63,788 nt of DNA from Leucoraja erinacea (GCF_028641065.1 NW_026576298.1:62001-125788); one strand, 5' to 3'; counted from the first letter of the stretch, positions 28,610-55,191 are shown. Notes: generated from the sequence alone by a model not told the origin. Program-made: numbers and translations.

Positions 28610-28800
28610 TTGTGCGCTGGCCCTCTGGGAGTTGTAGTCGGTGCCGGCGCAGAGGACGTGGCGTCGCCCCGGGCCGGGCCGTGCGTGGGACTACAAGTCC
28701 CAGCGCGCACCGCGCACGGTATCATTCAAACACCTCTCCATGGCAACGGACCAAGCAATGGGGCGGGCGTGAAAGGCCGCCCCCATCTCCAGGCTCTTTA
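28610..28800 (+). promoter_or_regulatory. CpG-rich promoter with two ZNF143/THAP11 (SBS) motifs, RFX X-box and GC box
   Basis: TGGGAGTTGTAGT (28626-28638, reverse orientation), ACTACAAGTCCCAGC (28690-28704), CTCTCCATGGCAAC (28734-28747), GGGCGGG near 28761. Confidence 0.75.
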
Positions 28801-28804
28801 AAAG

Positions 28805-28862
28805 ATGAAAAGAGCCTCACAAAATGTCCTTGTCTTTACTTGTTTGGCTGTATGTCTCTCTG
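28805..28862 (+). CDS. putative first coding exon (signal peptide MKRASQNVLVFTCLAVCLS-G) of an uncharacterised gene
   Basis: AAGATGA start directly after the promoter; basic N-terminus plus hydrophobic core; consensus donor TG|gtaagt in phase 1. Confidence 0.6.
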
Positions 28863-29183
28863 GTAAGTGTTAGAAGTTCATAAGATAAGAGAAGATACCA
28901 GCAGCAGCAACAAAAAAGGCCATTCCTCCCATTGTGTCCATGCTAGCCCATTCCCAGATTGAAGGCACTCATGGTTTCTGGATCGTCTCAACAGCAATAA
29001 CAGCCGCAAGGGTGTAGGAAGGAACTGCAGGTGCTGGTTTTAAACAAACACACAAAATTGCTGAGAGGAAAGACTTTCTCACCTGGAGAGTTGTGAAATT
29101 TGTGGAATTTCCCTGCCACAGAGGGCAGTGGAGGCCAAGTCACTGGATGGATTTAAGAGAGAGTTAGATAGAGCTCTAGGGGC

Positions 29184-30280
29184 TAGTGCCCGGGGAGGGG
29201 GTGGTACGGATGGGAAGGGAAGAATTGACAAGGGAGTTGCGGAGGGAGCGGTCTTTGCGGAAGGCAGACATGGGGGGGGAGATGGGAAGATGTGGCGAGT
29301 GGTGGGGTCACGTTGGAGGTGGTGGAAATTGCGGAGGATTATGTGTTGTATTTGCCGGCTGGTGGGGTGAAAGGTGAGGACCAGAGGGACTCTGCCCTTG
29401 TTGCGAGTGCGGGGATGGGGAGAGAGAGCAGTGTTGCGTGGTATGGATGAGACCCTGGTGCGAGCCTCATCTATGGTGGCGGAGGGAAATCCCCGTTCCC
29501 TGAAGAACGAGGACATTTCCGATGCCCTGGTGTATATATCAGTCTGCCTTCCGCAAAGACCACTCCATCCACAACTCCCTTGTCAATTCTTCCCTTCCCT
29601 CCCGTACCACCCCCTCCCCGGGCACTTTCCGTTGCGACCGCAAGAAATGCAACACCTGTCCCTTCACCTCCCCCCTCGACTCCATTCAAGGACCCAAGCA
29701 GTTGTTTCAGGTGCGACAGAGGTTTACCTGTATCTCCTCCAACCTCATCTACTGCATCCGCTGCTCTAGATGTCAGCTGATTTACATCGGGGAGACTAAG
29801 CGGAGGTTGGGCGATCGTTTCGCCGAACACCTCCGCTCAGTCCGCAATAACCTACCTGATCTCCCGGTGGCTCAGCACTTCAACTCCCCCTCCCATCCCC
29901 AATCCGACCTCTCTGTCCTGGGTCTCCTCCATTGCCAGAGTGAGCAACACCGGAAATTGGAGGAACAGCACCTCATATTCCGCCTGGGTAGCTTGCGTCC
30001 TGATGGCATTAACGTTGAATTCTCCCAATTTTGCTAGCCCTTGCTGTCTCCTCCCCTTCCTTAACCCTCGAGCTGTCTCCTCCCATCCCCTGCCCTCGGG
30101 CTCCTCCTCCTCCCTTTTTCCTTCCTTCTCCCCCCACCCCACCCCCATCAGTCTGAAGAAGGGTTTCGGCCCGAAACGTCGCCTATTTCCTTCGCTCCAT
30201 GGATGCTGCTGCACCCGCTGAGTTTCTCCAGCAATTTTGTGTACCTTCGATCTTCCAGCATCTGCAGTTCCTTCTTGAAC
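29184..30280 (+). mobile_element. Penelope-like element (GIY-YIG endonuclease, Cys-rich linker; Neptune-type), 5'-truncated with an inverted 5' segment
   Basis: ORF 29522..30037: CDRKKCNTC...FTCISSNLIYCIRCSRCQLIYIGETKRRLGDRFAEH...VAQHFN...GINVEF. Segment 29184-29535 on - encodes the upstream region (FRERGFP..RVPLVLTFHP). Confidence 0.9.
30153..30180 (+). ncRNA. minimal hammerhead-ribozyme-like motif in the Penelope terminal repeat
   Basis: CTGAAGA-A-GGG(TTTCGG)CCC-GAAAC-GTC gives the CUGANGA and GAAA core, stem II, palindromic minimal stem III and GUC triplet. Helix I is weak. Confidence 0.55.
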
Positions 30281-30617
30281 AGATTATTCCCGATGTTGGG
30301 GAAGTCCAGAACTAGGGGTCACAGTTTAAGGATAAGAGGGAAGTCTTTTAGGACCGAGATGAGAAAATCATTTTTCACACAGAGAGTGGTGAATCTGTGG
30401 AATTCTCTGCCACAGAAGGTAGTTGGGGCCACAGTTCATTGGCTATATTTAAGAGGGAGTTAGATGTGCCCCTTGTGGCTAAAAGGATCAGGGGGTATGG
30501 AGAGAAGGCAGGTATGGGATACCGAGTTGGATGATCAGCCATGATCATATTGAATGGCGGTGCAGGCTCGAAGGGCTGAATGGGCTACTCCTGCACCTAT
30601 TTTCTATGTTTCTATGT
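30281..30617 (+). mobile_element. CR1 LINE 3' fragment
   Basis: RLFPMLGKSRTRGHSLRIRG...FFTQRVVNLWNSLP, with TTCTATGT tail. Confidence 0.85.
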
Positions 30618-30628
30618 TATTTTCCAAG

Positions 30629-30684
30629 GTTCCATGGATTCTTGCACCGATTGTTATGTGGGTGACTCCATTCATTTAAGAAAG
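30629..30684 (+). CDS. candidate internal exon of the uncharacterised gene (GSMDSCTDCYVGDSIHLRK)
   Basis: ttttccaag| acceptor; phase 1 in, phase 0 out; bridges 28862 to 39450 in frame. The donor AAG|gtggtg is weak. Confidence 0.35.
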
Positions 30685-31549
30685 GTGGTGGGTTGAAAAG
30701 GCAAGCCAGACACCAGCAGGAGCCAAAGATGCTGCGGTCAAATTTTCAGGACGTACCCAGTATAAATCTCTTAGCAAATAATAATAGGATTAGGCAGTGT
30801 CAACATGGGCTGAAGTGAAATTGTATTTGCTAAATGCTGGTGTATTTGGTGATGAAAACTACCTGGATAGGACAGATAACTCGATAGATGCTTATTTGGA
30901 CTTCAAGAAGGCCCACTTTCACGAACTAATTCGCGACCTTTTTTACTCGTGGACATGTTTCATCGTGCTAGAAAAAAAACGCCCCGGGCCTACTTGATGC
31001 CACGAATGCCTACGACTAGCCTCACGGCCTGCTACGACCTACCTACGACCTTGTGATGGCCATGCTGTGAGGATACTGAGTTGGATGATCAGCCATGATC
31101 ATATTGAATGGCGGTGCAGGCTCGAAGGGCCGAATGGCCTACTCCTGCACCTAATGTCTATGTTTCTATGAGTCAAGGGCAAACTCGGCAGAGGTGGTGA
31201 ATTAGGTCTTGAAAGTGGGACAGGCCCTTTACATGGAAACACAAGAAACTGCAGATGCCAGCCTATTGAACAAAACACAAAGCGCTGGAGGATCTGGATG
31301 GAGTGGATGTGGAGAGGATGTTTCCACTGGTGGGAGATTGTAGGACCAGAGGGCACAGCCTCAGAATAAGAAGGATGGCACCTTTAGAAAGGAGTTGGGG
31401 GAATAATTTCTTTAGTCAGAGGGTGGTGAATCTGTGGAATTCATTGCCACAGGCCAAGTCAGTGGATATTTGGTTTAAGAAGGTACTGCAGATGCTGGAA
31501 AATCGAAGGTGGACAAAAATGCTGGAGAAACTCAGCGGGTGAAATTGAA

Positions 31550-32400
31550 ACATAGAAACATAGAAAATAGGTGCAGGAGTAGAGGCGATTCGGCCCTTCG
31601 AGCCTGCACCGCCATTCAATATGATCATGGCTGATCATCCAACTCAGTATCCTGTACCTGCCATCTCACCATACCCCCTGATCCCTTTAGCCACAAGGGC
31701 CACATCTAGCTCCCTCTTAAATATAGCCAATGAACTGGCCTCAACTACCTTCTGTGGCAGAGAATTCCACAGATTCATCACTCGCTGTGTGAAAAATGTT
31801 TTCCTCATCTCGGTCCTAAAAGATTTCCCCCATATCCTTAAACTGTGACCCCTTGTTCTGTACTTCCCCAACATCGGAAGCAATCTTCCTGCATCTAGCC
31901 TGTCCAACCCCTTAAGAATTTTGTAAGTTTCTATAAGATCCCCCCTCAATCTTCTAAATTCTAGCGAGTACAAGCCAAGTCTATCCAGTCTTTCTTCATA
32001 TGAAAGTCCTGACATCCCAGGAATCAGTCTGGTCATATATAAGATTGTTAAGGGTTGGGACACACTAGAGGCAGGAAACATGTTCCCGATGTTGGGGCAG
32101 TCCAGAACCAGGGGCCACACACAGTTTAAGAATAAGGAGTAAGCCATTTAGCACGCAGACGAGGAAACACTTTTTCTCGCAGAGAGTGGTGAGTCTGTGG
32201 AATTCTCTGCCTCAGAGGGCGATGGAGGCCGGTTCTCTGGATGCTTTCAAGAGAATGCTAGGTAGGGCTCTTAAAGATAGCGGAGTCCGGGGATATGGGG
32301 AGAAGGCAGGGACGGGGTACTGATTGGGGATGATCACATTGAATGGCGGTGCTGGCTCGAAGGGCCAACTGGCCTACTTCTGCACCTATTGTCTATTGTC
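31550..32400. mobile_element. back-to-back CR1 3' fragments (- then +)
   Basis: ORF 31644..32147(-) is CR1 RT C-terminus; a second subfamily copy on + starts at ~32035. Confidence 0.85.
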
Positions 32401-35400
32401 TATTGGTATACAAAAGTGCTGGAGAAACTCAGCGGGTGCAGCAGCATCTATGGAGCGAAGGAAATAGGCAACATTTCGGGCCGAAACCCTTCTTCAGACT
32501 GTCTATTGTCTATTGGTGAAAATATCCACTCAATGTATATGTTTAAGGTTAAGATTGGTAGATAGTTGATTTGTGCGGGTGTCAGGGGTTGTGGAGAGAA
32601 GGCAGGAGAATGGGGTAGGGAGGGAGAGATGGTTCAGCCATGATTGCATGGTGGAGTAGACTTGATGTGGGCCGAGTGGCCTGATTCCCCCTCCTCGAAC
32701 TATTGATGGTCGATGGCAAACCCTTCAATCCAGGCAGCATTCTGGTAAACCTTCTCTGCACGCTCGGCAAAGTTGTAGTGTCGTTCTCCTCTTCCGATGA
32801 GGAATCAACGGATGGCACGTTTCCCCTCCCCCATCAAGGATTCCAGGCGTAGGGCCCAAAGCCAACTTCCAAGAGTCACGGCTGCGCAGTGCCAGAGACC
32901 CAGGTTCACAAGGTCACAAGTGATGGGAGCAGTGGGAGGAAACTTGAAGATCTTGGAGAAAACCCACGCAGGTCACGGGGAGAAGGTACAAACTACAAAC
33001 TGTGTACAGCGGAGCCCGTGGTCGGGATGGAACCCGGGTCTCCGGCGCAGCGAGCCGGCGACTCTACCCGCTGTGCCGCAAAGAGATAGGAGCAGAATTA
33101 GGCCATTCGGCCCATCAAGCCAACTCCGACATCCAATCAATTATGGCTGATCTACCTCTCCCTCCTCCCCCCATTTTCCTGCCTTCTCCCCCGTAACCCA
33201 TGACCCTTGACACCCGTACTAATCAAGAGTCTAAGGTAGACAAAAATGCTGGAGAAACTCAGCAGGTGAGGCAGCATCTATGGAGCGAAGGAAATAGGCG
33301 ACGTTTCGGGTCGAGACCCTTCTTCAGACTGATGTGGGGGCGGGGCGGGGGGGGGGGGGGGGAGATGAAAGGAGGAGGAAATAAAAAGGGTCTCGACCCG
33401 AAACGTTGCCTATTTCCTTCGCTCCATAGATGCTGCTGCACCCGCTGAGTTTCTCCAGCATTTTTGTCTACCTTTGATTTTCCAGCATCTGCAGTTCCTT
33501 CTGAAACAGTCAAGAATCTATCTCTCTCTCTCTCTCCGCCTTAAATATATCCATTGAATTGTGGCCTCCACAGGCCGTCTGTGGCAAAGAATTCCACAGA
33601 TTCACCACCCTCTGACCAAAGAACTTTGTTTGATCCTGACCTCGGCCACCGTCTGCATGGAGTTTGTAACGTACGTTCTCCCTGTGACCACGTGAGCTTT
33701 CTCCAGTTGCTCTGGTTTCCTCCCACACTCCAAAGACGGCCGATTTGGAGGTTAGTTGGCTTGTGTAAATTGCCTTGAGTGTGTGTGTGTACGATAGAAT
33801 TAGCGTATGGATGTCCTTTGGCTGGCTTGGGCTCGATGGGCAGAAAGGCCTGTGTCAACGCTGTATCACTAAACCAATCTAGTGTGAATGGGTGGTAGAC
33901 AAAAATGCTGGAGGAACTCAGCGGGCGAGGCAGCGTCTATGGAGCGAAGGAATAGGCGACGTTTCGGGTCGAGAGACTGGTGTGAATGGGTGTTCGCTGG
34001 TTGGTGTGGACTGGGTGTGAAGAAAGGCCTGTTCCTGCTCTGTATCCCTCAACTAAACTAGAACAAGTCAGAAGAGCTCGCAAATATAAGCCTGTGACTA
34101 TCATGAATGGTCTTTTTTTGGAGATTAAGATCCGGAGGTTGCAGGTAGTGGAAGCAGGTAGGGAGACTGACGAAAACCTCCGGGAACCGCACGGAAACCT
34201 TGGGTGGGGCGCAAAGTCTCCAGAGGTTTCCGTTCAGGTTTCCTAAGTGGGACAGGGGCATTAGGAAACATAGAAACATAGGTGCAGGAGTAGGCCATTC
34301 GGCCCTTCGAGCCTGCACCGCCATTCAATATGATCATGGCTGATCATCCAACTCAGTATCCTGTACCTGCCTTCTCTCCATACCCCCTGATCCCTTTAGC
34401 CACAAGGGCCACATCTTCACCCCTGCAATTCCCTGCTGCCATGGGCAGTTTAGTTGAGAGACGCAGCATGGAAACAGGCCCTTCGGTCCGCCGAGTCCAC
34501 ACTGGCCCTCAGTCACCCACTAGTTTTTAGTTTTTGGAGAAACAGGACCTTCCGCCCACTGAGTCCACGCCGATCAGCGATCCCCCCACACACTCGGGAC
34601 AATTTTACATCTACACCAAGCCAATTAGCCTACAAACCTGCACGTCTTTGAAGTGTGGGAGGAAACCGAAGTCTCGGTGAAAACCCACGCAGGTCACGGG
34701 GAGAACGTACAAACTCTGTGCAGACAGCGCCCGTGGTCAGGATCGAACCGGGGACTCTGGCGCTGCCCCACCGTGCCGCCCCTTAGTTCTACATTATCCC
34801 ATCCGCTCCCTCCACACTAGCGGTCAGTTTACAGAGGGCCAATTAACCTACAGACCCGCGCGGGCACGTCTTTGCCACGTAGGAAGAAACCAAAGGAATC
34901 CCTCGCGGTCACAGGGAGAGCATGCAGACTCCACATAGAAAGCACCCGAGGTCAGGAGCGAACCCGGGTCTCTGGCGCTGTGATCAGCCGCTCTACCCGC
35001 TGCACCACCACGATCTCCCATCCCCGACTCTCATTTATCCCCTCCCTCCCTCCTCTCCTTCTCTGTCCCCTTACACCTGTAAATCTCCTTCTGGGCTTCC
35101 ACTTCACTCCTCACATCGAAACATAGACAATAGGTGCAGGAGGAGGCCATTTGACCCTTCGAGCCAGCACCGCCATTCATTGTGATCATGGCTGATCGCC
35201 CCCAATCAATAACCCGTGCCTGCCTTCTCCCCGTATCCCTTGACTCCACCAGCCCCTAGAGCTCTATTTAACTCTCTCTTAAATCCATCCAGTGACTTGG
35301 CCTCCACTGCCCTCTGTGGCAGGGAATTCCACTAATTCACAACTCTCTGGGTGAAAACTTTTTTTCTCACCTCAGTCTTAAATGGCCTCCCCTTTATTCT

Positions 35401-35889
35401 AAGACTGTGTGTGTGGCCCCTGGTTCTGGACTTGCCCAACATTGGGAACATTTTTCCTGCATCTATCTTGTCCAGTCCTTATAAAATTTTATATGTTTCT
35501 ATAAGATCCCTCCTCATCCTTCTAAGCTCCAGTGAATATAAGCCTAGTCTTTTCAATCTTTCCTCATATGACAGTCCCGCCATCCCAGGGATCAATCTCG
35601 TGAACCCAAGCTGCACTGCCTCAATCACAAGGATGTCCTTCCTCAAATTAGGAGGGCAAAACTGGACTCCAGCATTTTCGATTTTTCCAGCATCTGCAGT
35701 TCCTTCTTAAACAGGAGAAGGTGGATAACGTTTAATGCAAGATAAAGTCCGATTAAAGATAGTCTGATGGTCTCCAATGGGAGATATGGTAAGCTAGGAT
35801 CGCTCTCTAGTTGGTTATAGGACGGTTCGGTTGCCTGATAAAAGCCAAACTGTCTCCGAATCTGGAGATGTGTGCGTTTGTTTTCACGT

Positions 35890-36430
35890 TTGCAGTTTTG
35901 CTCCCCTAATTTGAGGAAGGACATTCTTGCTATTGAGGGAGTGCAGCGTAGGTTCACCAGGTTAATTCCCGGAATGGCGGAACTGTCATATGTTGAGAGA
36001 ATGGAGCGGCTGGGCTTGTACACTCTGGAGTTTAGAAGGATGAGAGGGTATCTCATTGAAACATATAAGATTGTTAAGGGTTTGAACATGCTAGAGGCAG
36101 GAAACATGTTCCCGATGTTGGGAAAGTCCAGAACCAGGGGCCACAGTTTAAAAATAAGGAGTAAGCCATTTAGAATGGAGACGAGGAAACACTTTTTCTC
36201 ACGGAGAGTGGCGAGTCTGTGGAATCCTCTGCCTCAGAGGGCGGTGGAGGCAGGTTCTCTGGATGCTTTCAAGAGAGCTAGATAGGGCTCATAAAAATAG
36301 CAGAGTCAGGGGATATGGGGAGAAGGCAGGAACGGGGTACTGATTGGGGATGATCAGCCATGATCACATTGAATGGCGGTGCTGGCTCGAAGGGCCGAAT
36401 GGCCTACTCCTGCACGTATTGTCTGTTGTC
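35890..36430 (+). mobile_element. CR1 LINE 3' fragment
   Basis: ORF 35872..36285, CR1 RT C-terminus. Confidence 0.9.
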
Positions 36431-36721
36431 ACACTTCTGTCCCTCTTGCCCGATGGGAGAGGGGTGAAGAGGGAGTGACCGGGGGTGAACTGGTCCCTTG
36501 ATGATGCTGCTGGCCTTGCCGAGGTGTAGATGCTGAATGAAAGGCAGGTTGGTTTGTGCGATGGCCCTTAGTACACCAACACCCTCCCCCTCTCCGGAAG
36601 GGATGTACTGGTGGATTCAAGTCAGAAGACTCACGATTGCTTAATTCTCATGTCTCCCCTGAACAGAACAATACAATACTTGTAGTAGCATAACAGGCAT
36701 CATACAGATAATATATATATA

Positions 36722-37380
36722 CTAGACTAAATGGGACCCGTTGGATCCCAGCATCACACGGGAGGGCTGGTCACCAACACAATATTCCACCTCTCCACCA
36801 ATTCTAATGTTGCTCGCTAGTAGGGAGGGGGGCTGTCTGTTGCGCTAGTATGGGTGTTGCGGGCCGAAGGTACTGGTTTCCAAAGGGCTAGTATAGACAT
36901 TGTGGGCCGAATGGATTCTTGGGCTGGCATCCAACTGTTGCAACAATTTTAAAAGGCAAGGCAAACAATTGGGCTGCAGCCACTTTACAGCCGCATCGAG
37001 GGGACTCATCGTGGAGTAGACGTGCGTTCAGTGATATTCGCAGCTCAGAGAGCCGTGACCCTCTCGCTTCCTGGGTCTGGCAGAGACGGAATGAGGCACT
37101 ACGCTTCCGGGTTTTATAGTCCCTCGCCCTGCCGCCAGCGGGGGCAGCAGAGAGAATGGGGATTTTTTTTAAAAAAACATTAATATCTCTCGGATTTTTT
37201 TTTATTTTTTATTTTTAATTTTTATTAGAAGTACGGTAAATTACATCGATGGGAAAAATCCTCTGGTCCCGGAAGGCGGAGGGGGCCTCTGAGCGAGGTG
37301 GCCAAAAATGATGGCGTTCTCTCGGAAATCGCAGCGCAGTGGGCCAAAAGCGGTCAAGATCAGACTTTTAGTAATATAGA
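36722..37380 (-). mobile_element. non-autonomous Helitron
   Basis: On -: A|TCTATATTAC at the 5' end, CTAG|T at the 3' end, subterminal hairpin (+ 36732-36750 TGGGACCC-GTT-GGATCCCA) about 10 nt from the end; no TSD. Confidence 0.7.
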
Positions 37381-38374
37381 TGATAACCACTAACCCTAGG
37401 CGGTCACGGTGTTGCAGCGGTAGAGTTACTGCCTTACAGCGCCAGAGACCCGGGTTCGATCCTGACTACTGACACTGTCTGCACGGAGTTAGTACATTCT
37501 TCCCGTGACCGGCATGGGTCTTTTTTGAGATATTCCGACACTCCAAAGACGTACAGGTTTGAAGGTTAATTGGCCAGGTAGAAAGGCAAAATTGTCCCTA
37601 GTGTGTGCAGGGTAGTGTTAGTCTGCGGGGATCGCCGCTGGTCGGCGCGGACTCGGTGGGCCGAAGGGCCTGTATTTCTAAACCAAATGAAAACCCGATG
37701 TCTTTAATGATCCAGAGAAGTTCGTAGTTAAGTTGTACTCAAGAGCCTGATGGATGTTGAGAAGGCCTGGTTCTTTTCAGGCTCCCGATGGAGGGAGTGA
37801 AGGTACAGGAGTGATCACAATGAATGGCGGTGCTGGCTCGAAGGGCTAAATGGCCTCCGCTTGCACCTATTTTCTATGTTTCTAAACTCAGCGGATGAGA
37901 CTGTGGAAGGTAGACAAAAATGCTGGAGAAACTCAGCGGATGAGACGGCATCTATGGAGCGAAGGAATAGGTGACGTTTCGGGTCGAGACCCGGAAGGGT
38001 CTCGACCCGAAACGTCACCTATTCCTTCGCTCCATAGATGCTGCCTCACCCGCTGAGTTTCCAGAAGGGTCTCACCCGAAACATCGCCCATTCCTTCGTT
38101 TCCAGAAGGGTCTCGTCCCGAAACGTCGCCCATTCCTTCGCTCCATAGATGCTGCCTCACCCGCTGAGTTCCCAGAAGGGTCTCGTCCCGAAACGTCGCC
38201 TATTCCTTCGCTCCATAGATGCTGCCTCACCCACTGAGTTTCTCCAGCATTTTTGTCAACCTTCCACTTAATCCTGTTCCGTCCACTGTGGACGGCTCGA
38301 TTGTAATCATGTACAGTCTTTTCGCCAACTGGATTTTCACCGCATCTCGGTACACGTGACAATAAGGAACTAAG

Positions 38375-38710
38375 CACCGGAAATTGGAGGAACAGCACCT
38401 CATATTCCGTTTGGGGAGTCTGCACCCCAGGGGCATGAACATCGAATTCTCCCAATTTTGTTAGTCCTTGCTGTCTCCTCCCCTTCCTCAGCCCCCCTGC
38501 TGTCTCCTCCCATCCCCCAGCCTTCTGGCTACTCCTCCTTTTCCCTTTCTTGTCCCCACCCACCCCCACCCCCGATCAGTCTGAAGAAGGGTTTCGGCCC
38601 GAAACGTTGCCTATTTCCTTCGCTCCATAGATGCTGCTGCACCCGCTGAGTTTCTCCAGCTTTTTTGTGTAACCTTCGATTCTCCAGCATCTGCAGTTCC
38701 CTCTTAAACT
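38375..38710 (+). mobile_element. Penelope-like element 3' fragment with intact hammerhead-like core (38581-38608)
   Basis: HRKLEEQHLIFRLGSLHPRGMNIEF plus terminal repeat. Confidence 0.85.
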
Positions 38711-39449: not shown

Positions 39450-39507
39450 ATTGCCTCTGTAGACGCTGACTGGAGTCAAGCACCTCACAACTCGTTCAAA
39501 GAAAGAG
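39450..39507 (+). CDS. putative internal exon of the uncharacterised gene (IASVDADWSQAPHNSFKER)
   Basis: Polypyrimidine tract with ccccacag| acceptor and AG|gtaaga donor, in non-repeat sequence. Ends in phase 1, matching the acceptor at 43771. Confidence 0.6.
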
Positions 39508-40640: not shown

Positions 40641-41264
40641 TCACACTCACACATTGGCCAAATTTAGACAAATAGAGGTTATTGTTAATACCTCCTCTTT
40701 GAAAGACGATTGCAATTAGGTAGCTTTGCTATAACATATGTTTCCATACCACAAATTTTTAAAAAAACGTGATTGAATTAGAGAACACTGTATTACATGG
40801 GCCAAATTGGTTTTGATCGGGAACAAGGGAACCACTTAAAAGTTACTTTGGAAATTTGTCTTGCAGGGAAAAAAGCTGTCTTTCAAAAAGTAAACAGTCT
40901 GGGGGGAAAAAAGTTCCAATGTAACCTCCCTGCAGCAATCAGATACCACTGCCTCTTAACAAAAGAGTCTGCCAGTTTCATCATAGAAACATAGAAACTA
41001 AGTGCAGGAGTAGGCCACTCAGCCCTTCGAGCCTGAACCGCCATTCAATATGATCATGGCAGATCATCCAACTCATTATCCTGTACCACCTGCCTTCTCT
41101 CATGGAAGGAATGGGAGGCTATTGATCTCAGTAGGATAGTGTTAATGGTGGGCTGAAGGGCCTGTTTCCGCGCTGTGTCTCGGATCTAATCTAAAAAATA
41201 ATCGAAAATCTAACGGTTTGTGCAGTTACCCGAAATGAGAGAATTCAATAATGTTCCATGAATT

Positions 41265-43620
41265 CTGCAGTTGTACAGGGCCCTAGTGAGACCACACCTG
41301 GAGTATTGTGTGCAGTTTTGGCCTGTTGGCCTTCATAACAAGAGGAGTCGAGTATAGGAGCAAAGAGGTGCTTCTGCAGTTGTACCGAGCCCTAGTGAGA
41401 CCACACCTGGAGTATTGTGTGCAGTTTTGGTCCCCTAATTTGAAGAAGGACATTCTTGCTATTGAGGGAGTGCAGCGTAGGTTTACAAGGTTAACTCCCG
41501 GGATGGCGGAACTTTCATATGCTGGGCTTGTACACTCTGGAGTTTACAAGGATGAGAGGAAATCTCATTGAAACATATAAGATTGTTAAGGGCTTGGACA
41601 TGCTAGAGGCAGGAAACATGTTCCCGATGTTGGGGGAGTCCAGGACCAGGGGCCACAGTTTAACAATAAGGGGTTGGACAGGCAAGATGCAGGAAGATTG
41701 TTCCCGATGTTGGAGAAGTCCGGGACAAGGGGTCACAGCTTAAGGATAGAGGGGAAATCCTTTAGGACTGAGATGAGAAAAACATTTTTCACACAGAGAG
41801 TGGTGAATCTATGGAATTCTCTGCCATAGAAGGTAGTTGAGGCCACAGTTCATTGGCTATATTTAAGAGGGAGATAGATGGGGCCCTTGTGTCTAAAGGG
41901 ATCAGCGGGTATGGAGAGAAGGCAGGTACAGGATACTGAGTTGGATGATCAGCCATGATCATATTGAATGGCGGTGCAGGCTCGAAGGGCCGAATGGCCT
42001 ACTCCTGCACCTATTTTCTATGTTTCTAAGAATAAGGAGTAAACCATTTAGAACGGAGACGAGGAAACACTTTTTCTCACAGAGAGTGGTGAGTTTGTGG
42101 AATTCTCTGCCTCAGAGGGCGGTGGAGGCAGGTTCTCTGGATGCTTTCAAGAGAGAGCTAGATAGGGGATATGGGGAGAAGGCAGGAATGATTGGGGATG
42201 ATCGGCCATGATCACATTGAATGGCGGTGCTGGTGCTGGTGCTGGCTCGAAGGGCCAAATAGCCTACTCCTGCACCTATTACATAGAAACATAGAAATTA
42301 GGTGCAGGAGTAGGCCATTCGGCCCTTCGAGCCTGCACTGCCATTCAATATGATCATGGCTGATCATCCAACTCAGTATCCCGTACCTGCCTTCTCTCCA
42401 TACCCTCTGATCCCCTTAGCCACAAGGGCCACATCTAACTCCCTCTTAAATATAGCCAATGAATTCACCACTCTCTGATCATCCAACTCAGTATCCCACA
42501 CCTGCCTTCTCTCCATACCCCCTGATCCTTTTAGCCACAAGGGCCACATCTAACTCCCTCTTAAATATAGCCAATGAATTCACCACTCTCTGATCATCCA
42601 ACTCAGTATCCCATACCTGCCTTCTCTCCATACCCCCTGATCCCCTTAGCCACAAGGGCCACATCTAACTCCCTCTTAAATATAGCCAATGAACTGTGTG
42701 GCCTCAACTACCTTCTGTGGCAGAGAGTTCCAGAGATTCACCACTCTCTGTGTGAAAAAAAGTTATTCTCAATTGTCTATTGTATTGTATTGTATATCTT
42801 TATTGTCATTTCCTGAGTATTCACATACCCAGAGGAAACAAAAAAACGTTGCTCAACCAGTGTCCATTCAGTGTGCATTAAAAATAAATAGAAATAAAAA
42901 TACATATATCATGAACAAATTGAACACTCTACTAAACATTCAACAGGTGTTCCGATCGGCAGCGGCACGGCAGTGGTTCTGCTGCAGTGTGTCCAGGTTG
43001 GTGGTTGGTGCTCGAGACTTTGGCAGGGGGCAAAGTCCATTTAGCCGTCTTATAGCCTGTGTGTTATGATCCTGTGGTTTTGCAGCTAAATGCTCCTTTA
43101 GGAAACATAGAAATTAGGTGTTGTTTGTCTTTTGAGCCTGCAAAGCCATTCGCGAGTATCATTATCTGCCACTTTCTGATTTGGCCACAAGGGCCACATC
43201 TAACTCCCTCTGTATATGAACTGGCCAAATCTGTGGCAGAAGTTCCAGAGATTGACCACTCTCTGTGTGAAAAAAGTTCTCCTCATCTCGTTCTGGCAGC
43301 GGCCCCTTGGCCTGGACTTCCCCAACATGGGAACAATCTGCTGCATCTAGCCTGTCCAACCCCTTAAGTTTTGTGGTTTCTATAAGATCCCCCTCTCATC
43401 TCCTAATTTCTAGGCAGGGGTCTATCCAGCTTCAAAGACAGTCCATTTCCCAGGAATCAGTCTGGTGATTCTCTGCACTCCCTCTATGGAAATAATGTCC
43501 TTCCTCAGATTTGGAGACCAAAACTGCACGCAATACTCCAGTTGTGGTCTCACCAAGACCCTGTACAACTGCAGTAGAACCTCCCTGCTCCTATACTCAA
43601 ATCCTCTTGCTATGAAAGCC
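41265..43620. mobile_element. cluster of nested CR1 fragments (both strands) with a Rex1-like piece; partly low-quality sequence
   Basis: Multiple CR1 RT translations (41308..41571, 43422..43622), internal tandem duplication at 42360-42690, garbled copy at 43100-43430. Confidence 0.8.
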
Positions 43621-43770
43621 AACTGTACCTCTTCCCAGATGGCAGGATGGAGAAAATGTCATGCGATGGGTGGTAGGGGTCTTTGATGATGGAGATGGCT
43701 CTGCCATGGAGATGGAGATAGTATTGTCTATTGTTTATTGAATTGGTTTTTTTTTTCCCCCCTGATTTAG

Positions 43771-46700
43771 TTCCAAGAACTGGGAACGGCTTTAGCCAAG
43801 ACAGCAGGACACTAGGCGACATCATCTTCGATGTGTACGCCAACAATGCATCCATGCCCTCTCTGCTGGAGCGTATGCTGGCGGAGAGTGGAGTCAAGCC
43901 GGGTGGTGGTGGTGGTGGCGGCCAGCACAAGGTAGGCTTCCAACCGAGCCCCAGCCAGCCGACCGTGAGCCGATTGAACCTGACCCAGCACACGAGGAAG
44001 GGCCGGCCACGCCTGCCGGGCCAGTCGTGGTCCGGGCGCCCCGACACGGCCAAGCCCGCCGGAAGGGAAGACCTCGGCTACGCCGAGAAAGAGCTGCAAC
44101 TCTTCCACCAGATGTTCGAGGAGTACCTCCACTTCAAGGCCCACCGCAAGGGCGAGGGGGTGGCCGCCACCAGGAGGGGGCTGGAGGAGACGTGCGAGAA
44201 GATACTGGGCCGCAAGCACAAGCCGGTCGAGGCGGACTCCACCGTGGTGATCGTGGACGATGGCTACCAGGGGAAGAACGCGACCAAGCCGCCGCTGGTG
44301 GCCTCCAAGGAGGAGGAGGCCTTCTCGTCGTTCGAGACGCTGGTCAAGGCCATGCTCTCGCCCTTCTCCCAGCTGCCCACCACGTCCCCCGGCAACGCCA
44401 ACACCAACACCCGCTTCCCCGACGACGTGACCGTCACCCGCGAGGAGGAGGGCAACTCCACCCCGGTGTTGGAGATCACGCAGACGGCCGGGAGCGGGAC
44501 GGGGACGGGACCACCGACATCGACCTGACCTCCGGCGGGCCAACGGCGCTGGAGTTCTCCCCGGCCAGCGTGGGGCCGACGGGCGGGGATGAGGTGGTGA
44601 CCACCGTGGTGTCCGAGGCCCAGACCGAGCCGCCGGCCGCCTCGGCCTCCACCGGGCTGGACAACAACGACTTCTCCTCCCCCCCCACCTCCACCATCAC
44701 CGTCAAGCTGACGGACGACACCACGGATGTCACCCCCAACGTGAAGGAACACATCTCCACCCTCGGGCACGCCCCGTCCACCGCCTTCACCGAGGCCCAG
44801 TCCCCCACCCCGTCCAACGGGCCCGAGAGTTTCCCCTCCTCCCCCCCTTACTACAACCCCTTCCAGACCTACGGCACACCCACCTGGTCGAAGGAGCCGC
44901 ACCACCACGCCTTCTCCGTCCCCTCACGGTCCCCTCAGCTGCAGGACTTCCCCTTCTCCTCCTCACAGGGGAGTGGACAGTACGACTTCACCGGCCTTTC
45001 CACGGGGCCCCAGCAGTTCGACTTGCCCCCCACCCCTTCCAAAGGGGCTCAACAGTACGACTTTCCAACCCCGTCAATGGGGTCTCATCAATATGGCTTG
45101 CCCACCCCTTCAGCGGGGCTGCATCAGTTTGGCTTGCCGACCCCTTCAGCAGGGCTTCATCAATTTGGCGCCAACACTCCCTTAACTGGACCTCAACAGT
45201 ATGGCGTCACCACCCTTTCAACAGGACCTCAACAGTATGGCGTCACCACTCCTTCAACAGGACCTCAACAGTATGGCGTCACCACTCCTTCAACAGGACC
45301 TCAACAGTATGGCGCCAACACCCTTTCAACAGGACCTCAACAGTATGGCGTCACCACTCCTACAACTGGACCTCAACAGTATGGCGCCACCACTCCTTTC
45401 AACAGGACCTCAACAGTATGGCGTCACCACTCCTACAACTGGACCTCAACAGAATGGCGCCAACAGTCCTTCAACTGGATCTCAACTGTATGACTTTCCC
45501 ACTCCCTCAAGAGAACCTCAACAGTATGACTTTGCCGGTCCCTCAAGAGGACCCCAACAACACGGCCTCCCCAACCTTTCAAGAGGACCCCAACAATATC
45601 TCTCGTCCAGCCCTTCGAACGGACCTGAGGAGCTTGGCTCACCTTCTCCCTTGAAAGGGCCTCAACAACATGGCCTCCCCATGGCGTCGCGAGGACCTAA
45701 AAAGCATGGCTCCCCCTCCCCATCGAAAAGATCTCAGAAGCATGGCTCCCCCACCCCATCGAAGGGACCTCAAAAACAAGGCTCCCCCACCCCATCGATG
45801 GGGCCTCAAAAACGTACCTTCCCCGTCCCGACGAAAGGACCTCAGAAGCGTAGCCCGCCCAGCTCCACGAAAGCGCCTAAAAAGCACGGGCCCCCCAGCT
45901 CTTCCAAAAGCTCCAAGAAGCACGGGACTCAGGGCACGACCGTCCTCCAGCCCGATTACACGGCGACCACCCAGATCTCGTCCGGCAACGAGTCCTCGTT
46001 CCTCCTGACCAACGAGCCGCCCGCGGGCCAGAACCGGCAGGCCCCGAGGAAGAAGGGGAAGAGCAGCCACGGCCGGGCCCTGCTCCGAAACCTGGTCCTC
46101 CCCGCGGAGGACATCGAGAAGCTGTACCTGATCGAGGAGTCCGCGAGGAAGCAGCGGATGTCCACCACCACCACCGAGCCCCGGCGGCTGAAGATCAAGA
46201 TCCGGCACCAGCAGACGACGGAGGAACCGGCGAAGGAGGAGGAAGCCGACGACGAGAAGGAGGTGGAGGAGGCGGTGGAAGCGGAGCAGGCGGCGGCCGC
46301 AGAGGAGGAACCGTCCAGCCAGTCGGACATCCCCGTGCTGGAGAACCTGATGAAGAACCTGAACCAGCAGTTCTCCAAGCGGGTCCCGACCAAGGAGGAC
46401 ATCGTCAACATCCAGGACGCCATCTCGCGGCTGAACGCGGTCCTGTCGCAGTCGCAGTCGGCCCCCGAGAACACCAGCCGCCACGCCGGCCTGTCCCAGG
46501 CCCCCCGGCCCAGCACGTGGAAGGAGAGCGCGGAGCCGCGGACCCCGGCGCCCAGGCTGAGGCTGAGGCCTAAGCAGCAGCTGAGTCCGGAGCTGGAGCT
46601 GGAGCCAGTGCCGGAGCTAATGCTGCCCAGCAAGGCCCCAAACGCCCTGGGAGGGGCCCACTTCCTCCCCCAGGCCATCTTCTACAGCCCGGAGAAGCCC

Positions 46701-49700
46701 GGCAAAAAGGCGGAGCCGCGAGAGGAGCCGCTGGGGGTTACCACCTACAGGAGCCCCCTGAGGGCCGAACGGCCGCTGAGCGAGAGGAAAGGGGCCCGGG
46801 AGGACAAGAAGGCCTCGGGCCCCCGCCAGGAGCTGCACCTGAGCGCGCCCGACGTCTTCCCCAAGATAGACCAGCTGGAGCAGCTGCTGAAGAAGGCCAA
46901 GGTCAGGTTCTCCAAGGGGAGCCCCACCCCCGGCGACATGCTCCACTTGAAGACCGCCATGAACCACTTGGACGCCATCGTGCCGGGCGACAACAACCTG
47001 TCGCGGTCGAAGAGAGCCGCCCACCACCGCCCGCCGTCCGTGCCCGGCTCTTCGGTTTCGCACTTCATCCTCCCGTCCGATGCCCGCGGCCCAAGCCCGG
47101 GCCCCTCCGCCAAACGCCGCACGAAGCCCCTCCACGCCTTCCCGCCCAACGCCCGCGAGCACCACAAGCCTTCGTCCTCCTCCTCCTCCTCCAACGGGAA
47201 GGCCTCGGCCCACCCCGGACCCCGCCACGGGGCCCCCCTCAGCGGAAGGCTCCCCGACAGTGCCCGTCCGGCCCGCAGGGATCCCGCCCCTTCCCCCATC
47301 CCAAGCCCGAAGGGCGCAAAGAGGAAGCGCGCCGGCAAAAAGTCCAACGCTTCCGCCGGAGCGCCATCGCCCGTCTCCCATGGACAACCGTCGCCGTCCA
47401 AAATGGCCCCGCCAGCCGCCGCCCATCCCCGCCGCGAAAACTCCAAGGAGCACATCATCCGACGAGCATCCATGTTCTCCCCGGAGAAAGGCCACGCGCC
47501 GCCCATTTCCAAGAGGTCGCTTCCGAACCGGCCTCCGGGGAAGGTTCTGCCCGAGCGTCGGGCGGCCCAGCGCCCTCGTCTCCCCACGGAGGGGCCCCGT
47601 CCGGTCCCCCTCGCCAACCCGAGGGACCGAGACATTTACCGGCCTTCGAGCCCGGTTGTGTCGGGCAAGGCGGCTGCCCCCCCTCCCCGGAGAGCCCCCC
47701 AGGGGTCTTCAAAGAACGCAGCCCGGCAGGGGCTGTCGGGACCCCAGGGTCTGAGGCTGAAGTTCGCCGCCAGAGGGAACAGGGACTCGTTCCTGGAGAA
47801 GAGGCGGGAGAAGGCCCTCTCGCCGGGCACTCAAGAGTCCAGGTTGCAAGGTATGAATTCTCCAAATGGCCCCCAAAAAGGCAGCGTTGCCAACCCTTCC
47901 CACCGCATCCACGCGCCTTCCCCCGAGAAGACGTGGGATTCGAACCCATCGCGTGGTCTCAACGCGCCTTCCGGTAAGAACGTACGGTCGTCGAAGACTC
48001 TCCCGGGTCCCAATCCGCCGACCCCGGAGAAAGTGTGGTCCTCGAAGGCTTCTTACCGGCACCCCCCGCCTTCCCTGAAGAGTACAAGGCCTACAGCTTC
48101 TCGCAGTTTCGAGTCACCTTCGTTTGAGAGCGCAAAGTCGTTGAGACTGTCCCAGAAGCTCCCTGTAGCGTCCCCCGAGAACAGGCGCTCATCGAGCCCG
48201 ATCCGCAGGCGTGGACCGCCTTCCCCCGATAATGAGCCGCTTCCAAAAGCTTCCCCCAACCTCAACCCGCCTTCCCCGAAGAGGTCAAAGTCTTCAAGGC
48301 CTCCCCTTAGACTTCCACCTTCCCCCGAGGACCGGGAGTCCTCTGAACCTCCCCTTAAGCGCAACCCACGTCTTCCCGGGGACAGGAGAGCTTCGAACCC
48401 TTCCCACAACCTCAAGTTTACACCTCCCGGCAAAAGGCGGCCTACAGTCCATCTTCCGACTTCCCGCGAGAAAGAGCAACTTTCAAACCCGCCTCTCCCC
48501 GAGATCGTCTCCTCGTCCCCTTTGAACAGTTTCAAAAAGTCTTCCCGGGCGAACGGGAGATCTTCAAACCGTCCCCCTATTCTTAAACCAACCAACGCGA
48601 TTCGAATCCCATCCATTGGTCCAAGTCTACCTGTCCTTGAGGACAGGAGGTCTTCAAAGCTGCCCGATAGTCTTCAGAAATCTTCCACTGGGAACAAGAA
48701 GTCCAATAGTTTCAATCCGTCTTCTGCTGAGAGAGAGTCGCCAAATCCTTCCCATTTTTCGACCCCATCTTCCATTGCGATCACAAAGGCTACAAACCCT
48801 TTCGTTCGACTCAAACCGTTATCCGCTGGGCACAGGAGGTCTTCACAGTTACCCCATGGCCGTCGTCCAGTTTTCACTGGGACTAGAAGGTCTACAAATC
48901 CTCCCCACGTTCTCCACGCATCATCCAAGTCTTCAAAGCCATCCCAAGATCCGACACCATCTTCCATAGGGACCATGAAGTCTACAGGCCCTTCCCGTGG
49001 TCTCAGTCCGTCTTCCACCAGGCCAACGCATAGTCCTCCATCTTCCACTGGGAGTCATCAGTCATCGGTTGCGCCCCAAAGTCACAACCCACCTCCACCT
49101 GGGTCCTCAAACCCTTTGAAAGATTCCACTGCAAAAGCCCCCCCGAATACCGAGACTCCGCTACCCTCCGTCATAAGGATGTCGGCCGGCTCCAAGGAGA
49201 AGCCGTTAAAACTGCCCCACGCCACCCATCAGCCTCCCCTTTGGAAAGGGAAGTTCTCGAAACTGTTCTACAACCTCGGGGACTCTGCGTCGGTGAGGAA
49301 GCGATTCCACGGCCCCAACCCGTCGCCGCCGGTCAACGGGCTGGAGGCCACGCGCCGCGCCCTCCGCGAGCCCGGCCCCAAGCGGCAAGACCCGGAGACC
49401 CCTCAGGCCCCGACCCCGGCCCCCGAGCCGGAAGCCGCGATGGCGAAGAGGCCTTCCAATCCTTCGCCCGGCCCGCACCCGGCGAGCACCACCGCCACCG
49501 TCCTGCTGGTGGAACACTCGCCCGCGACCAAGACGCCGCGCGTCCACCACGTCCACGCCTTGAAGACCCCCAGGGACAGAACCTCGTTCTTCGGCCTCAC
49601 CACCTCAACCGCCCCCGTGGTCGAGGTGTTTGTCGAGCCATCGACCACCGCCACCACCACCAAGATTCCGCTACTGGAGACGCCGACCACCACCCCTTCC

Positions 49701-51075
49701 GAAGACATCGAGATCATTCTCCTCCCCACCAGCCCCGCCCCCACCCCCCCACCCCATTGACGTTGTGCCGCCAGCCTCCGTCAACCCGCCTCACCCGGCC
49801 GCGCCCACCAGGAAGCAAGTCCCGCGCCTCCACCGCCATTCCAGCACCACGCTGGCCACGGAAGCGCCGGAAGACCAAGACACCTCGGAGGTCACGTTCG
49901 TGGAGATTCCCGAGACCGTGCCGGAGACGACCGAGGCGACTCTGGTCCCTGACCTTTCGCCGGAGACGGTCAGCCCCGCGCCCAGCGCCGCCGCCGGCGC
50001 GCCGCCGCCACCGCCGGACGAGGAAGAGGGCCCGGTCACACTCCCGACCAAGATCGTCCCGCGAGTCCACCACCACATCCACTCGCTCGTCACCCCGGCC
50101 AGTCGCCTCTCCTTCCTCCGCATCACCACCCCCAAGACCAAGCAAGTCCTTCTCAACTACACCAGGACCTCGACCCTGACCCCGACCGCCACCTCCACCG
50201 CGGAGACCCCCACCGCCGGGACCTTCTCCTCCACCAAGAAACCGTCCAGAAAGAAAAACAAGCACAAGGGCAGCAAAAAGTCTTCGCCCGTGACGGCCAC
50301 TCCGGAGGCCGCGGCCGAATCGAGCACCAAGAAATCGGAGCACCACAAGGCGGCCAGCGGCTCCGCCAAGCAAAAGTCCCACCGCAACAAGTCAACGTCC
50401 AATGTGAAGTCCAAGAAGTCATCCTGGGGCTCCCCCAATCCCTCTCCGGCCCGCAACATGGCCGAGAGGTCTTCGACTCCTTCGTCCAGTGACCCGTCCG
50501 CACGGCAATCTTCGAAAGCCACCGCCCCCTCCGAGCGCAGCGCCCCGTCGAGCGAGGGATCGCCGGCGCCTTCCGTCGCGCCCGCCACACGGCGTCCGCA
50601 GTCCCCTCCCATGAACGAGCTGGTGATCCAGGCGTCTTTCCCCTCGCAGAGCTCGCCCCTGACCAAGCGGCCAGTGCCGCGCCACCACTCCAGCCGCCCG
50701 AGACCCCCCCAGCCGGCCGCCGACCAGCCCAGCCCGACCGCCGCCGCCGCCACCGCCGAGCCCGAAGACGAGGACCTGGAGGAGCTCGAGGAGTTCGACG
50801 ACCCCGCGCCCTCCGACGGCCCCAATCAAGGCTTCCCTCAACTCCTCCAGGACGTGGCAGAACCGTCCCCCATCGGAACCCCGGAGCCCGCCGACGGGGA
50901 GGGCGAGGAGCCCGAGTTCCTCCACCGACGCGCCAGGAGGGTGGGGTCGTTCGGCCGGCCCCCGCCGCCCGACCATCCCGCCGACCCTCGCGGGGAGGCG
51001 CAGCGGTTCACCAGAGCGCGGCGGACCCAGACCCAGTGGGTGGCCAACCAGCCAGGCGTCGAGGGGGCCATCTGA
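43771..51075 (+). CDS. giant terminal exon (~2,430 codons) of an uncharacterised Pro/Ser/Thr/Arg-rich, probably secreted protein; 3 single-nt frameshifts
   Basis: Acceptor tttttcccccctgatttag|. Overlapping ORFs 43731-44528, 44027-45493, 45201-49760 and 49630-51075 chain through shifts at ~44500, ~45398 and ~49750. Strong GC3 bias, no TE insertions over 7.3 kb, TGA at 51073-51075. Confidence 0.8.
44965..45930 (+). repeat. coding 36-nt/12-aa tandem repeat (TGPQQYGVTTPS), ~26 units
   Basis: Unit ACAGGACCTCAACAGTATGGCGTCACCACTCCTTCA; diverges toward both ends. Confidence 0.9.
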
Positions 51076-53764: not shown

Positions 53765-53826
53765 TCACATCTGCACGCATCTCCTCGCGGGTTCTCCGTC
53801 GGCGTTTGCTTCTCGACGCACCTTCT
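53765..53826 (-). CDS. ANKDD1-family terminal coding exon (EKVRREANADGEPARRCVQM*)
   Basis: Minus-strand polypyrimidine tract with caacag| acceptor; phase 1 matches the upstream exon; ends in CaaX then TGA. Confidence 0.8.
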
Positions 53827-55170: not shown

Positions 55171-55191
55171 TAACAAGGATGTCCTTCCTCA

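What the first reader, a model, noticed from the sequence alone, without database searches (positions are those of the whole stretch)
28610..51075. Unrecognised gene for a giant (~2,490 aa) secreted low-complexity protein between ANP32E and ANKDD1-like
Seen: a CpG promoter, a phase-1 signal-peptide exon (28805-28862), phase-compatible micro-exons (30629-30684 tentative; 39450-39507) and a 7.3-kb exon free of TEs in an otherwise TE-saturated region, which suggests purifying selection. The protein is modular: helical N-terminal part, Thr/acidic mucin-like part, GPQQY repeats, duplicated helical module, long basic Pro/Ser/Arg part, Thr-rich part and acidic tail. It is nearly Cys-free with no TM segment. 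I recognise no family. Inference: a lineage-restricted structural or extracellular-matrix precursor (sperm, egg capsule or mucus are all possible).
Basis: partly seen in the sequence, partly recalled or inferred. Interest (0 to 1): 0.85.

Follow-up and report, generated by a model that had tools for sequence, protein, structure and literature searches.

The report
Giant secreted shark-and-ray matrix precursor
This is a real gene, so far found only in sharks and rays, for a very large secreted protein that is probably cut into a sugar-coated half and a strongly positively charged half; the public skate record holds only its first ninth, and its likeliest but untested job is to build a gel or matrix in or around sperm.

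Summary
(1) Exon 1 is read in another frame: ATG 28824, phase 0, spliced straight to exon 39450-39507; the micro-exon 30629-30684 is not needed. (2) The 7.3-kb exon is four ORFs joined by three single-base frame breaks, most likely long-read assembly errors. (3) It is not unrecognised: the three-exon model up to the first break is letter for letter NCBI's 284-aa LOC129693704 of Leucoraja erinacea. Unbroken relatives occur in Mobula (2,045 aa) and Narcine (1,996 aa), and shorter records in two sharks. No hit outside elasmobranchs, no Pfam family, no solved relative. Read through with X it is about 2,465 aa: signal peptide, invariant N-glycosylation site, 24 Gln/His 12-mer repeats, a duplicated helical hairpin, a furin-type site shared by three batoids, then a pI 11-12 Pro/Ser/Arg half with short conserved His motifs. 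Best reading: a secreted proprotein whose basic half condenses a matrix, probably in sperm or seminal fluid (CpG, TATA-less promoter with an RFX-like site; fast divergence). No expression data were found, so the tissue is a guess.

The parts
28610..28810 (+). CpG-island promoter without TATA or CCAAT box
   Evidence: CpG o/e 0.97, GC 64%; 0 TATA and 0 CCAAT matches in 28560-28830; start site not known
28626..28638 (-). ZNF143/Staf-type site ACTACAnnTCCCA, copy 1 (motif name recalled)
   Evidence: only 2 matches in the whole window, both here; 0 of 5000 shuffles reach 2
28690..28702 (+). ZNF143/Staf-type site, copy 2 (motif name recalled)
28734..28747 (+). RFX X-box-like element: one perfect half-site, one degenerate (consensus recalled)
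   Evidence: strict 10-mer CCATGGCAAC once in the window, 6 of 5000 shuffles; the loose pattern is common (23 in the window, 606 of 5000 shuffles)
28805..28862 (+).
28824..28862 (+). Coding exon 1 (13 codons, phase 0): most of the signal peptide
   Evidence: 10 of 13 identical to Mobula P0003; equals residues 1-13 of P0004; top hydropathy window, 1.72
39450..39507 (+). Exon 2 (phase 0 to 1): end of signal peptide and mature N-terminus
   Evidence: score vs Narcine 46 (0 of 2000 shuffles), vs Mobula 38 (2 of 2000); in P0004
43771..51075 (+). Exon 3, coding part, 7.3 kb, in four frame segments
43809..44369 (+). Conserved N-terminal region: LGDIIFD block with invariant N-A-S/T sequon (43845), helix pair with the only, invariant Cys (44085-44220), FSSFE block (44322)
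   Evidence: invariant columns in 5 of 5 sequences; sequon 5 of 5; AlphaFold helices 47-56, 63-71, 136-159, 163-182, 218-227 at low confidence, mean pLDDT 40
44470..44528 (+). Frame break 1 (net one base short, in a stretch of G runs; exact base not fixed); the uncorrected frame stops at 44526
   Evidence: P0004 ends here
44530..45004 (+). Thr/Ser-rich, acidic, mucin-like stretch
   Evidence: net -9 and -10, Ser+Thr 26-30 per 100 residues
45005..45870 (+). 24 tandem 12-residue repeats, Gln-Gln/Lys-Tyr/His-Gly core, turning basic towards the 3' end
   Evidence: same period in Mobula (9 units), Rhincodon (11), Chiloscyllium (8), 0 by the same pattern in Narcine, 14 in skate
45395..45398 (+). Frame break 2: one 37-nt unit in the 36-nt array (one extra base in a T run)
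46326..46457 (+). Helical hairpin module 1
   Evidence: conserved in 5 of 5; AlphaFold helices 134-150 and 155-176, block pLDDT 71-91
46857..46988 (+). Helical hairpin module 2, a duplicate of module 1; clear in skate and whale shark, eroded in Mobula and Narcine
   Evidence: score 69, 0 of 2000 shuffles; pLDDT about 60
47004..47015 (+). Furin-type site RSKR
   Evidence: R-X-[KR]-R at the same place in Mobula (829) and Narcine (799, 802); the shark records end before it
47016..51072 (+). Basic Pro/Ser/Arg-rich half with short conserved motifs at 49245 (KG[KR]FS.LFY), 49539 and 50062 (R[IV]HH[IVH]..), 49816 ([QL]VP.[LF]H); Thr-rich and acidic patches and two more R-X-R-R sites (50929, 51013) are seen in skate only
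   Evidence: pI 11.0, 11.8, 11.6 and net +93, +112, +102 in skate, Mobula, Narcine; motifs 3 of 3
49735..49760 (+). Frame break 3 (net one extra base, in C runs); the uncorrected frame stops at 49758
2803..20645 (+). Upstream neighbour: intact 7-exon ANP32-type gene, 259 aa (paralog E is a recalled label)
   Evidence: open reading frame with AG/GT junctions; LRR matches
53768..59215 (-).

Best explanation
A working three-exon elasmobranch gene for a secreted proprotein of about 2,000-2,470 aa that serves as a matrix or scaffold, most likely on the male side (acrosome of the spermatid, or the seminal matrix that binds sperm into bundles). Steps: (1) signal peptide takes it into the secretory pathway, where it is glycosylated [sequence and conservation shown; entry inferred]; (2) a furin-type protease cuts it after the second hairpin [site conserved in 3 of 3 batoids; cleavage inferred]; (3) the N-terminal half (pI 6.1-8.4; hairpins, Thr-rich stretch, Gln/Lys/His 12-mers) acts as spacer and cross-linking part, the repeats being candidate transglutaminase substrates [inferred by analogy]; (4) the C-terminal half (pI 11-11.8, net about +100, largely disordered) condenses with polyanions such as sulfated glycans, with its His motifs perhaps binding zinc [inferred]. 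The three breaks in the skate sequence are read as assembly errors. My odds: real secreted-protein gene about 0.9; breaks are errors about 0.85; male reproductive matrix about 0.4.
For: Exons 1-2-3 equal P0004 letter for letter and match the N-termini of Mobula and Narcine. Invariant N-A-S/T sequon in 5 of 5. Furin-type site and the two-charge layout in 3 of 3 batoids. Single-ORF relatives hit the window in frames +3, +2, +3, +1 in order. No in-frame stop along the path in 2,467 positions, third-position GC follows it. The published little skate assembly was built from noisy PacBio CLR reads with Racon polishing (PMC10115646, passages); one ANKDD1-like exon also changes frame. For a male role: CpG, TATA-less promoter with an X-box-like element 77-90 nt above the ATG; RFX2 binds X-boxes close to start sites and is needed for acrosome formation in mouse (PMC4498915, passages); only 50-53% identity among batoids in the best region; batoid semen has a secreted matrix in which sperm bundles form (PMC8300314, passages); mammalian semen coagulum proteins are likewise large, basic (pI 10.3 for Svp5), repeat-rich and coded by a signal exon plus one major exon (PMC7556508, passages).
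Against: No expression data for this gene were found in any tissue. ZNF143 sites and CpG islands also mark housekeeping and ciliated-cell promoters (recalled), and the loose X-box pattern is common (23 in the window). The shark records (904 and 1,027 aa) stop before the furin site, so the basic half is shown only in batoids. Narcine has almost lost the 12-mer array (0 units by the pattern) and module 2 is eroded in two rays, so these parts are dispensable. Homology for the last segment is weak (tblastn E 0.42 and 0.066), and the 29-37% identities in low-complexity parts have no shuffle control. NCBI's model ends at the first break without correction. Synteny in other species could not be checked.
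Confidence: 0.38

Rival explanations
1. Same secreted proprotein, but a somatic gel or mucus component (skin, gill, gut, ampullary jelly, oviduct egg jelly) rather than a male one.
For: Ser+Thr 20-22% in both halves, 11-24 N-glycosylation sequons, acidic Thr-rich stretch; no tissue data exclude it.
Against: 1 Cys, no Pfam mucin domains, no transmembrane segment; 0 of 2,368 100-residue windows reach 40% Ser+Thr with 5% Pro in skate, 0 of 1,897 in Narcine, 56 of 1,946 in Mobula; a CpG, TATA-less promoter is unusual for such gland products (recalled).
Confidence: 0.22
2. A granin-like dense-core granule protein of endocrine or neural cells, cut at basic sites into peptides (the short conserved motifs would be the peptides).
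For: Signal peptide, helical hairpins, 25-40 dibasic sites per protein, short conserved motifs in a variable background; RFX factors also act in neurons and endocrine cells (recalled).
Against: Granins are acidic (recalled), this protein has pI 10.0-10.6; no granin Pfam match at E up to 10; dibasic sites are expected from the Arg/Lys content.
Confidence: 0.1
3. In this skate the long protein has just been lost: the breaks are real, leaving a 284-aa secreted product or a young pseudogene, while other rays keep the long form.
For: Three breaks in 7.3 kb; the neighbouring ANP32-type gene has none in 781 nt; P0004 ends at the first break; slippage in runs also happens in life, and 21% of the exon lies in runs of 3 or more.
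Against: No nonsense codon in about 2,190 codons after the first break, strong codon bias kept; all three breaks are net one base; break 2 looks like a blend of two neighbouring repeat units; noisy-read assembly. P0004 is probably predicted from the same DNA and so is not independent.
Confidence: 0.13
4. A structural protein of the egg capsule or of mineralised tissue (teeth, denticles, tesserae).
For: Disordered, repeat-rich, secreted, processed; acidic Thr patches.
Against: Longest Gly-X-Y run 2-3 triplets, Gly 5-7%, Tyr about 1%; full length kept in Mobula and Narcine, which bear live young (recalled); net basic; exon phases 0 and 1 with the signal peptide split over two exons, unlike SCPP genes (recalled).
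Confidence: 0.1

Closest known systems
NCBI LOC129693704 (Leucoraja erinacea, 284 aa, 'uncharacterized') and relatives P0003 Mobula hypostoma, P0001 Narcine bancroftii, P0002 Rhincodon typus, P0005 Chiloscyllium punctatum chiPu_0020132
   Same: P0004 is this gene up to the first break; the others share the N-terminal blocks, module 1 and, in the rays, the furin site and basic half.
   Different: Their names ('proline-rich protein 36-like', 'serine/arginine repetitive matrix protein 2-like', 'PB18E9.04c-like') are composition-driven labels; none is characterised. The skate record covers 284 of about 2,465 residues.
Mammalian semen coagulum proteins (REST genes: semenogelins, Svs2, guinea pig Svp5, rabbit SVP200)
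   Same: Works-like analogy: large, basic, tandem-repeat, Gln/Lys-bearing secreted proteins from a signal exon plus one major exon, fast diverging; one precursor is processed into two products (PMC7556508).
   Different: No sequence match, no WFDC domain, locus beside ANP32 rather than among WFDC genes, signal peptide split over two exons, conserved helical modules and N-glycan site that Svp5 lacks.
Acrosomal matrix proteins (SPESP1, ACRBP/sp32, ACRV1) and invertebrate bindin; features recalled
   Same: Signal peptide, short helical cores in low-complexity flanks, proteolytic processing, rapid change; SPESP1 lies near the paralog ANP32A in human (recalled).
   Different: No Pfam match to any of them; five to seven times longer than SPESP1; no Cys-rich domain.
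Gel-forming and membrane mucins; granins (features recalled)
   Same: Ser/Thr/Pro-rich glycosylated stretches; dibasic sites.
   Different: No Cys-rich polymerising domains, no membrane anchor, net basic.

Membership tests
REST semen coagulum proteins | Signal-peptide exon followed by one major coding exon | tested here: inconclusive
   One giant coding exon, but the signal peptide spans exons 1 and 2; rabbit SVP200 also has a short second exon
REST semen coagulum proteins | Homology to SEMG2/PI3 and position in the WFDC locus | tested here: not met
   Neighbours are ANP32-type and ANKDD1-like genes; no WFDC domain, 1 Cys; no mammalian hit. Nucleotide homology to SEMG2 itself was not tested
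REST semen coagulum proteins | High pI with Gln/Lys tandem repeats | tested here: met
   pI 10.0-10.6; 12-mer repeats in 4 of 5 proteins
REST semen coagulum proteins | Made in male accessory glands, cross-linked by transglutaminase | not testable with these tools
   No expression or biochemical data
Gel-forming mucins | Cys-rich VWD, C8, TIL and cystine-knot domains | tested here: not met
   1 Cys in 2,467 positions; 0 Pfam families on 4 of 4 segments
Membrane mucins | Transmembrane segment and SEA domain | tested here: not met
   Best non-signal 19-residue hydropathy 0.92 in skate, 0.83 in Narcine, 1.35 in Mobula; no Pfam match
Mucins (PTS domain) | 100-residue windows with at least 40% Ser+Thr and 5% Pro (threshold recalled) | tested here: not met
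   0 of 2,368 windows in skate, maximum 37%; 56 of 1,946 in Mobula; 0 of 1,897 in Narcine
SPESP1 / ACRBP acrosomal proteins | Match to the family profile | tested here: inconclusive
   No match in Pfam scans at E up to 1 and 10, but short diverged helices may be missed and no direct pairwise test was run
Granins | Acidic protein with granin profile match | tested here: not met
   pI 10.0-10.6; no Pfam match
Egg-capsule collagens | Long Gly-X-Y triplet region | tested here: not met
   Longest run 3, 2 and 2 triplets
Furin-type substrates | R-X-[KR]-R site in a secreted protein, conserved in position | tested here: met
   3 of 3 batoids; the 2 shark records end before the site. Cleavage itself not tested
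Any solved fold | Structural match of the helical modules | tested here: inconclusive
   Low-confidence models and generic hairpins

The most novel reading that the evidence does not exclude
An elasmobranch-wide, so far uncharacterised family of giant proproteins that release a 130-kDa polycation and a repeat-bearing glycoprotein which together set the gel that packs shark and ray sperm (or fills their acrosome): an independent invention of the semen-coagulum principle in a lineage that evolved internal fertilisation on its own, giving a first molecular handle on that matrix.
Probability: 0.25. Interest if true: 0.7.

Novelty: new variant of a known kind. Interest (0 to 1): 0.45.

Why it matters
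Practically, it corrects an annotation: a conserved gene is present in public sets only as a 284-aa stub and under misleading names. Biologically, it defines a protein family with its own conserved blocks and no detected relative outside sharks and rays. If it proves testis- or male-duct-specific, it is a direct candidate for the sperm-bundle matrix or acrosome of elasmobranchs, which matters for the evolution of internal fertilisation and for semen handling in conservation breeding. If somatic, it remains one more lineage-restricted secreted scaffold.

Tried and rejected
Pfam: 0 families on 4 of 4 window segments; on the 5 relatives only sub-threshold matches (Mab-21 E 0.009, Rx_N, DUF6794, syntaxin), rejected as below cut-off and not shared. 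ESM Atlas: no usable hit for residues 1-205 of the first segment; for P0004 best feature score 0.78 and TM at most 0.27. PDB by profile: 0 of 177,635 sequences. Foldseek on the N-terminal model: no match at E up to 0.001. Wide structural search on the middle model: best Z 4.4, none at 5 of 48,161 chains; says nothing about novelty of fold. Homodimer prediction for module 1: no answer, median 0.21 against a mark of 0.32, alignment not used; no evidence either way. N-terminal helix pair as a third copy of the module: rejected (1,241 and 1,160 of 2000 shuffles score as high). Literature: no listed paper holds the gene ids (5 of 6 papers listed, all with 0 occurrences; 20 of 1,208 listed, all matching only a digit string); searches gave nothing on this gene (search listings only). 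Catshark tissue atlas PMC11979771: outline and section 7 read, its supplement could not be read and may hold the expression answer. [quoted passage not shown] PMC10127299 (passages) did not say whether Narcine makes an egg capsule, so that point rests on recall. Cluster membership could not be looked up. Not run: SignalP, dN/dS (no DNA for relatives), synteny in other species, read mapping; metagenome and viral contig collections were not searched; the bacterial genome collection was not used as it does not bear on a vertebrate gene.
Full report
What is in the window. An intact seven-exon ANP32-type gene runs on the plus strand from 2803 to 20645 (259 aa, all junctions AG/GT; LRR matches). Between them lies a CpG island at 28610-28810 (o/e 0.97 against 0.56 for the window) and a GC-rich stretch at 43771-51075 with no sequence repeated elsewhere in the window, against 68% and 71% in the two introns.

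The big exon is coding but broken. It is four ORFs, in codon frames 0, 2, 0 and 1 (position mod 3). Third-position GC is 0.90-1.00 in the structured parts and moves to the next frame at about 44495, 45397 and 49750. The longest segment is 1,524 codons; 200 shuffles of the exon gave at most 459. Break 2 is exact: one 37-nt unit in an array of 36-nt units. Breaks 1 and 3 fall in G and C runs and are net one base short and one base long; their exact bases are not fixed. The finding as given does not mention these breaks. Read through with X at each, the protein has 2,467 positions and no stop.

Relatives. The first segment found a 1,996-aa Narcine protein (48% identity, E 1e-49) and a 1,027-aa whale shark protein (37%, E 1e-18) among 1,895 candidates. 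The Narcine N-terminal region found a 2,045-aa Mobula protein among 852 candidates. HMMER over 1.84 billion representatives gave 4 hits at E up to 0.001, adding P0004 (284 aa, 100%) and P0005 (904 aa). A profile of all five, scored on the 8,000 best candidates, returned those five and nothing else at E up to 1, and named P0004 as Leucoraja erinacea LOC129693704 and P0005 as Chiloscyllium punctatum chiPu_0020132. So the family is elasmobranch as far as these searches see; chimaeras and bony vertebrates gave no hit, but the collections seem to hold few shark species, and synteny outside this window could not be checked. The Mobula protein, a single ORF, hits the window in frames +3 (E 3e-43), +2 (1e-20), +3 (3e-55) and +1 (0.42) in order; support for the last segment is therefore weak by alignment and rests on codon bias and short motifs.

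The 5' end. ATG 28824 gives 13 codons, 10 identical to the Mobula start, ending in phase 0, which joins directly to exon 39450-39507 (phase 0 to 1; 0 and 2 of 2000 shuffles score as well against Narcine and Mobula) and then to 43771. This three-exon translation up to the first stop equals P0004 letter for letter. The micro-exon at 30629 is not needed and does not fit the phase. The ATG at 28805 would open a 25-codon upstream ORF over the true start.

Error or real loss. For error: no nonsense codon in about 2,190 codons after the first break, codon bias kept, all breaks net one base in runs, break 2 resembling a blend of two neighbouring units, a frame change in one ANKDD1-like exon too, and a published skate assembly made from noisy CLR reads with Racon polishing (PMC10115646, passages). 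That the window belongs to that assembly is my inference from P0004. Against: the ANP32-type gene has no break in 781 nt, NCBI left the model truncated, and slippage in runs is also a real mutation type (21% of the exon is in runs of three or more). I put error at about 0.85.

Anatomy. One hydrophobic stretch, at the N-terminus, in skate, Mobula, Narcine (from its residue 61) and whale shark. An N-A-S/T sequon is invariant in 5 of 5, good indirect evidence of passage through the secretory pathway. Three conserved blocks follow, with the only Cys invariant; AlphaFold gives helices but no confident fold (mean pLDDT 40). Then a Thr-rich acidic stretch, 24 repeats of 12 residues with a Gln-Gln/Lys-Tyr/His-Gly core (period shared by Mobula and both sharks, nearly lost in Narcine), and two copies of a 44-residue module (0 of 2000 shuffles) that folds as a two-helix hairpin (block pLDDT up to 91 for copy 1, about 60 for copy 2). 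Directly after copy 2, all three batoids have R-X-[KR]-R. The part before it has pI 8.4, 6.6 and 6.1; the part after it pI 11.0, 11.8 and 11.6 with net charge +93, +112 and +102 and carries three short motifs kept in 3 of 3 batoids, two with His. Identity to the rays is 50-53% in the first segment and 29-40% in most of the rest (18% against Narcine in the second segment), without a control for low complexity. The acidic tail and the last two basic sites are skate-only. Both shark records end before the furin site; whether they are truncated models is open.

How it most likely works. Shown: gene structure, conservation, signal-like N-terminus, sequon, cleavage motif, two-charge layout. Inferred: secretion, cleavage, condensation of the polycationic half with polyanions, cross-linking through the Gln/Lys repeats, metal binding by His motifs. 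For the tissue there is only indirect evidence. The promoter has two ZNF143-type sites (the only two in the window; 0 of 5000 shuffles), an X-box-like element (strict form 6 of 5000 shuffles, loose form common) and no TATA or CCAAT box (motif names recalled). In mouse, RFX2 binds X-boxes near start sites and is needed for acrosome formation (PMC4498915, passages). Batoid males secrete a matrix in which sperm bundles form (PMC8300314, passages). Mammalian semen coagulum proteins share size, high pI, tandem repeats and a one-major-exon layout (PMC7556508, passages). I therefore favour a male reproductive matrix at about 0.4, ahead of somatic mucus or jelly (0.22), recent loss in the skate (0.13), granin-like (0.1) and egg-capsule or mineral matrix (0.1). 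Such promoters also serve housekeeping and ciliated-cell genes (recalled), so this is a lead, not a result.

Known families. It is not a member of the REST, mucin, granin or collagen families on the features tested; SPESP1-type kinship is inconclusive. It may work like a semen coagulum or acrosomal matrix protein. No listed paper names the gene ids; supplements that I could not read, above all the catshark tissue atlas, may hold its expression.

Verdict. New as a family, familiar as a kind. Interest 0.45.

Noticed in passing
window 28805-28862 with 39450-39470: An out-of-frame ATG 19 nt above the true start would give a 25-codon upstream ORF that overlaps the start codon and could damp translation if the transcript begins above it; the 5' leader is similar in Narcine, whose record is extended 60 residues through it.
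   Followed up: partly
window 59068-59215 (minus): The ANKDD1-like exon changes reading frame in the middle, and the LINE-like copies around 58100-61600 look unusually degraded, suggesting lower sequence accuracy in this part.
   Followed up: partly
window 43771-51075: The exon body keeps CpG (o/e 0.86, GC 65%) far above the introns (0.57), and third-position GC falls to about 0.5 in the repeat array and in 48300-49100, as if those parts were younger expansions.
   Followed up: no
window 51212-51360: A 13/26-nt tandem repeat (about 11 units) in the presumed 3' UTR; no AATAAA or ATTAAA in 51076-52000, so the transcript end or a further non-coding exon is unknown.
   Followed up: no
window 27120-28530: A degenerate tandem array of roughly 120-nt units, broken by SINE-like inserts, lies just upstream of the promoter.
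   Followed up: no
window 17525-18200: A short-period tandem repeat fills the intron after ANP32 exon 5.
   Followed up: no
window 20645-25920: The ANP32-type gene seems to have a long 3' region with many retroelement inserts up to an AATAAA near 25913.
   Followed up: no
P0002 and P0005, residues about 20-80: Both shark proteins carry about 40 extra residues between the signal peptide and the first conserved block that the three batoids lack, perhaps a longer or extra exon.
   Followed up: no
PMC10115646 supplement file 2, SI Table 3: The authors were unsure where the skate counterpart of chicken chromosome 25 lies, and P0004 sits on a 125,788-base contig; a GC-rich, hard-to-assemble region may explain why few shark species show this gene.
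   Followed up: no
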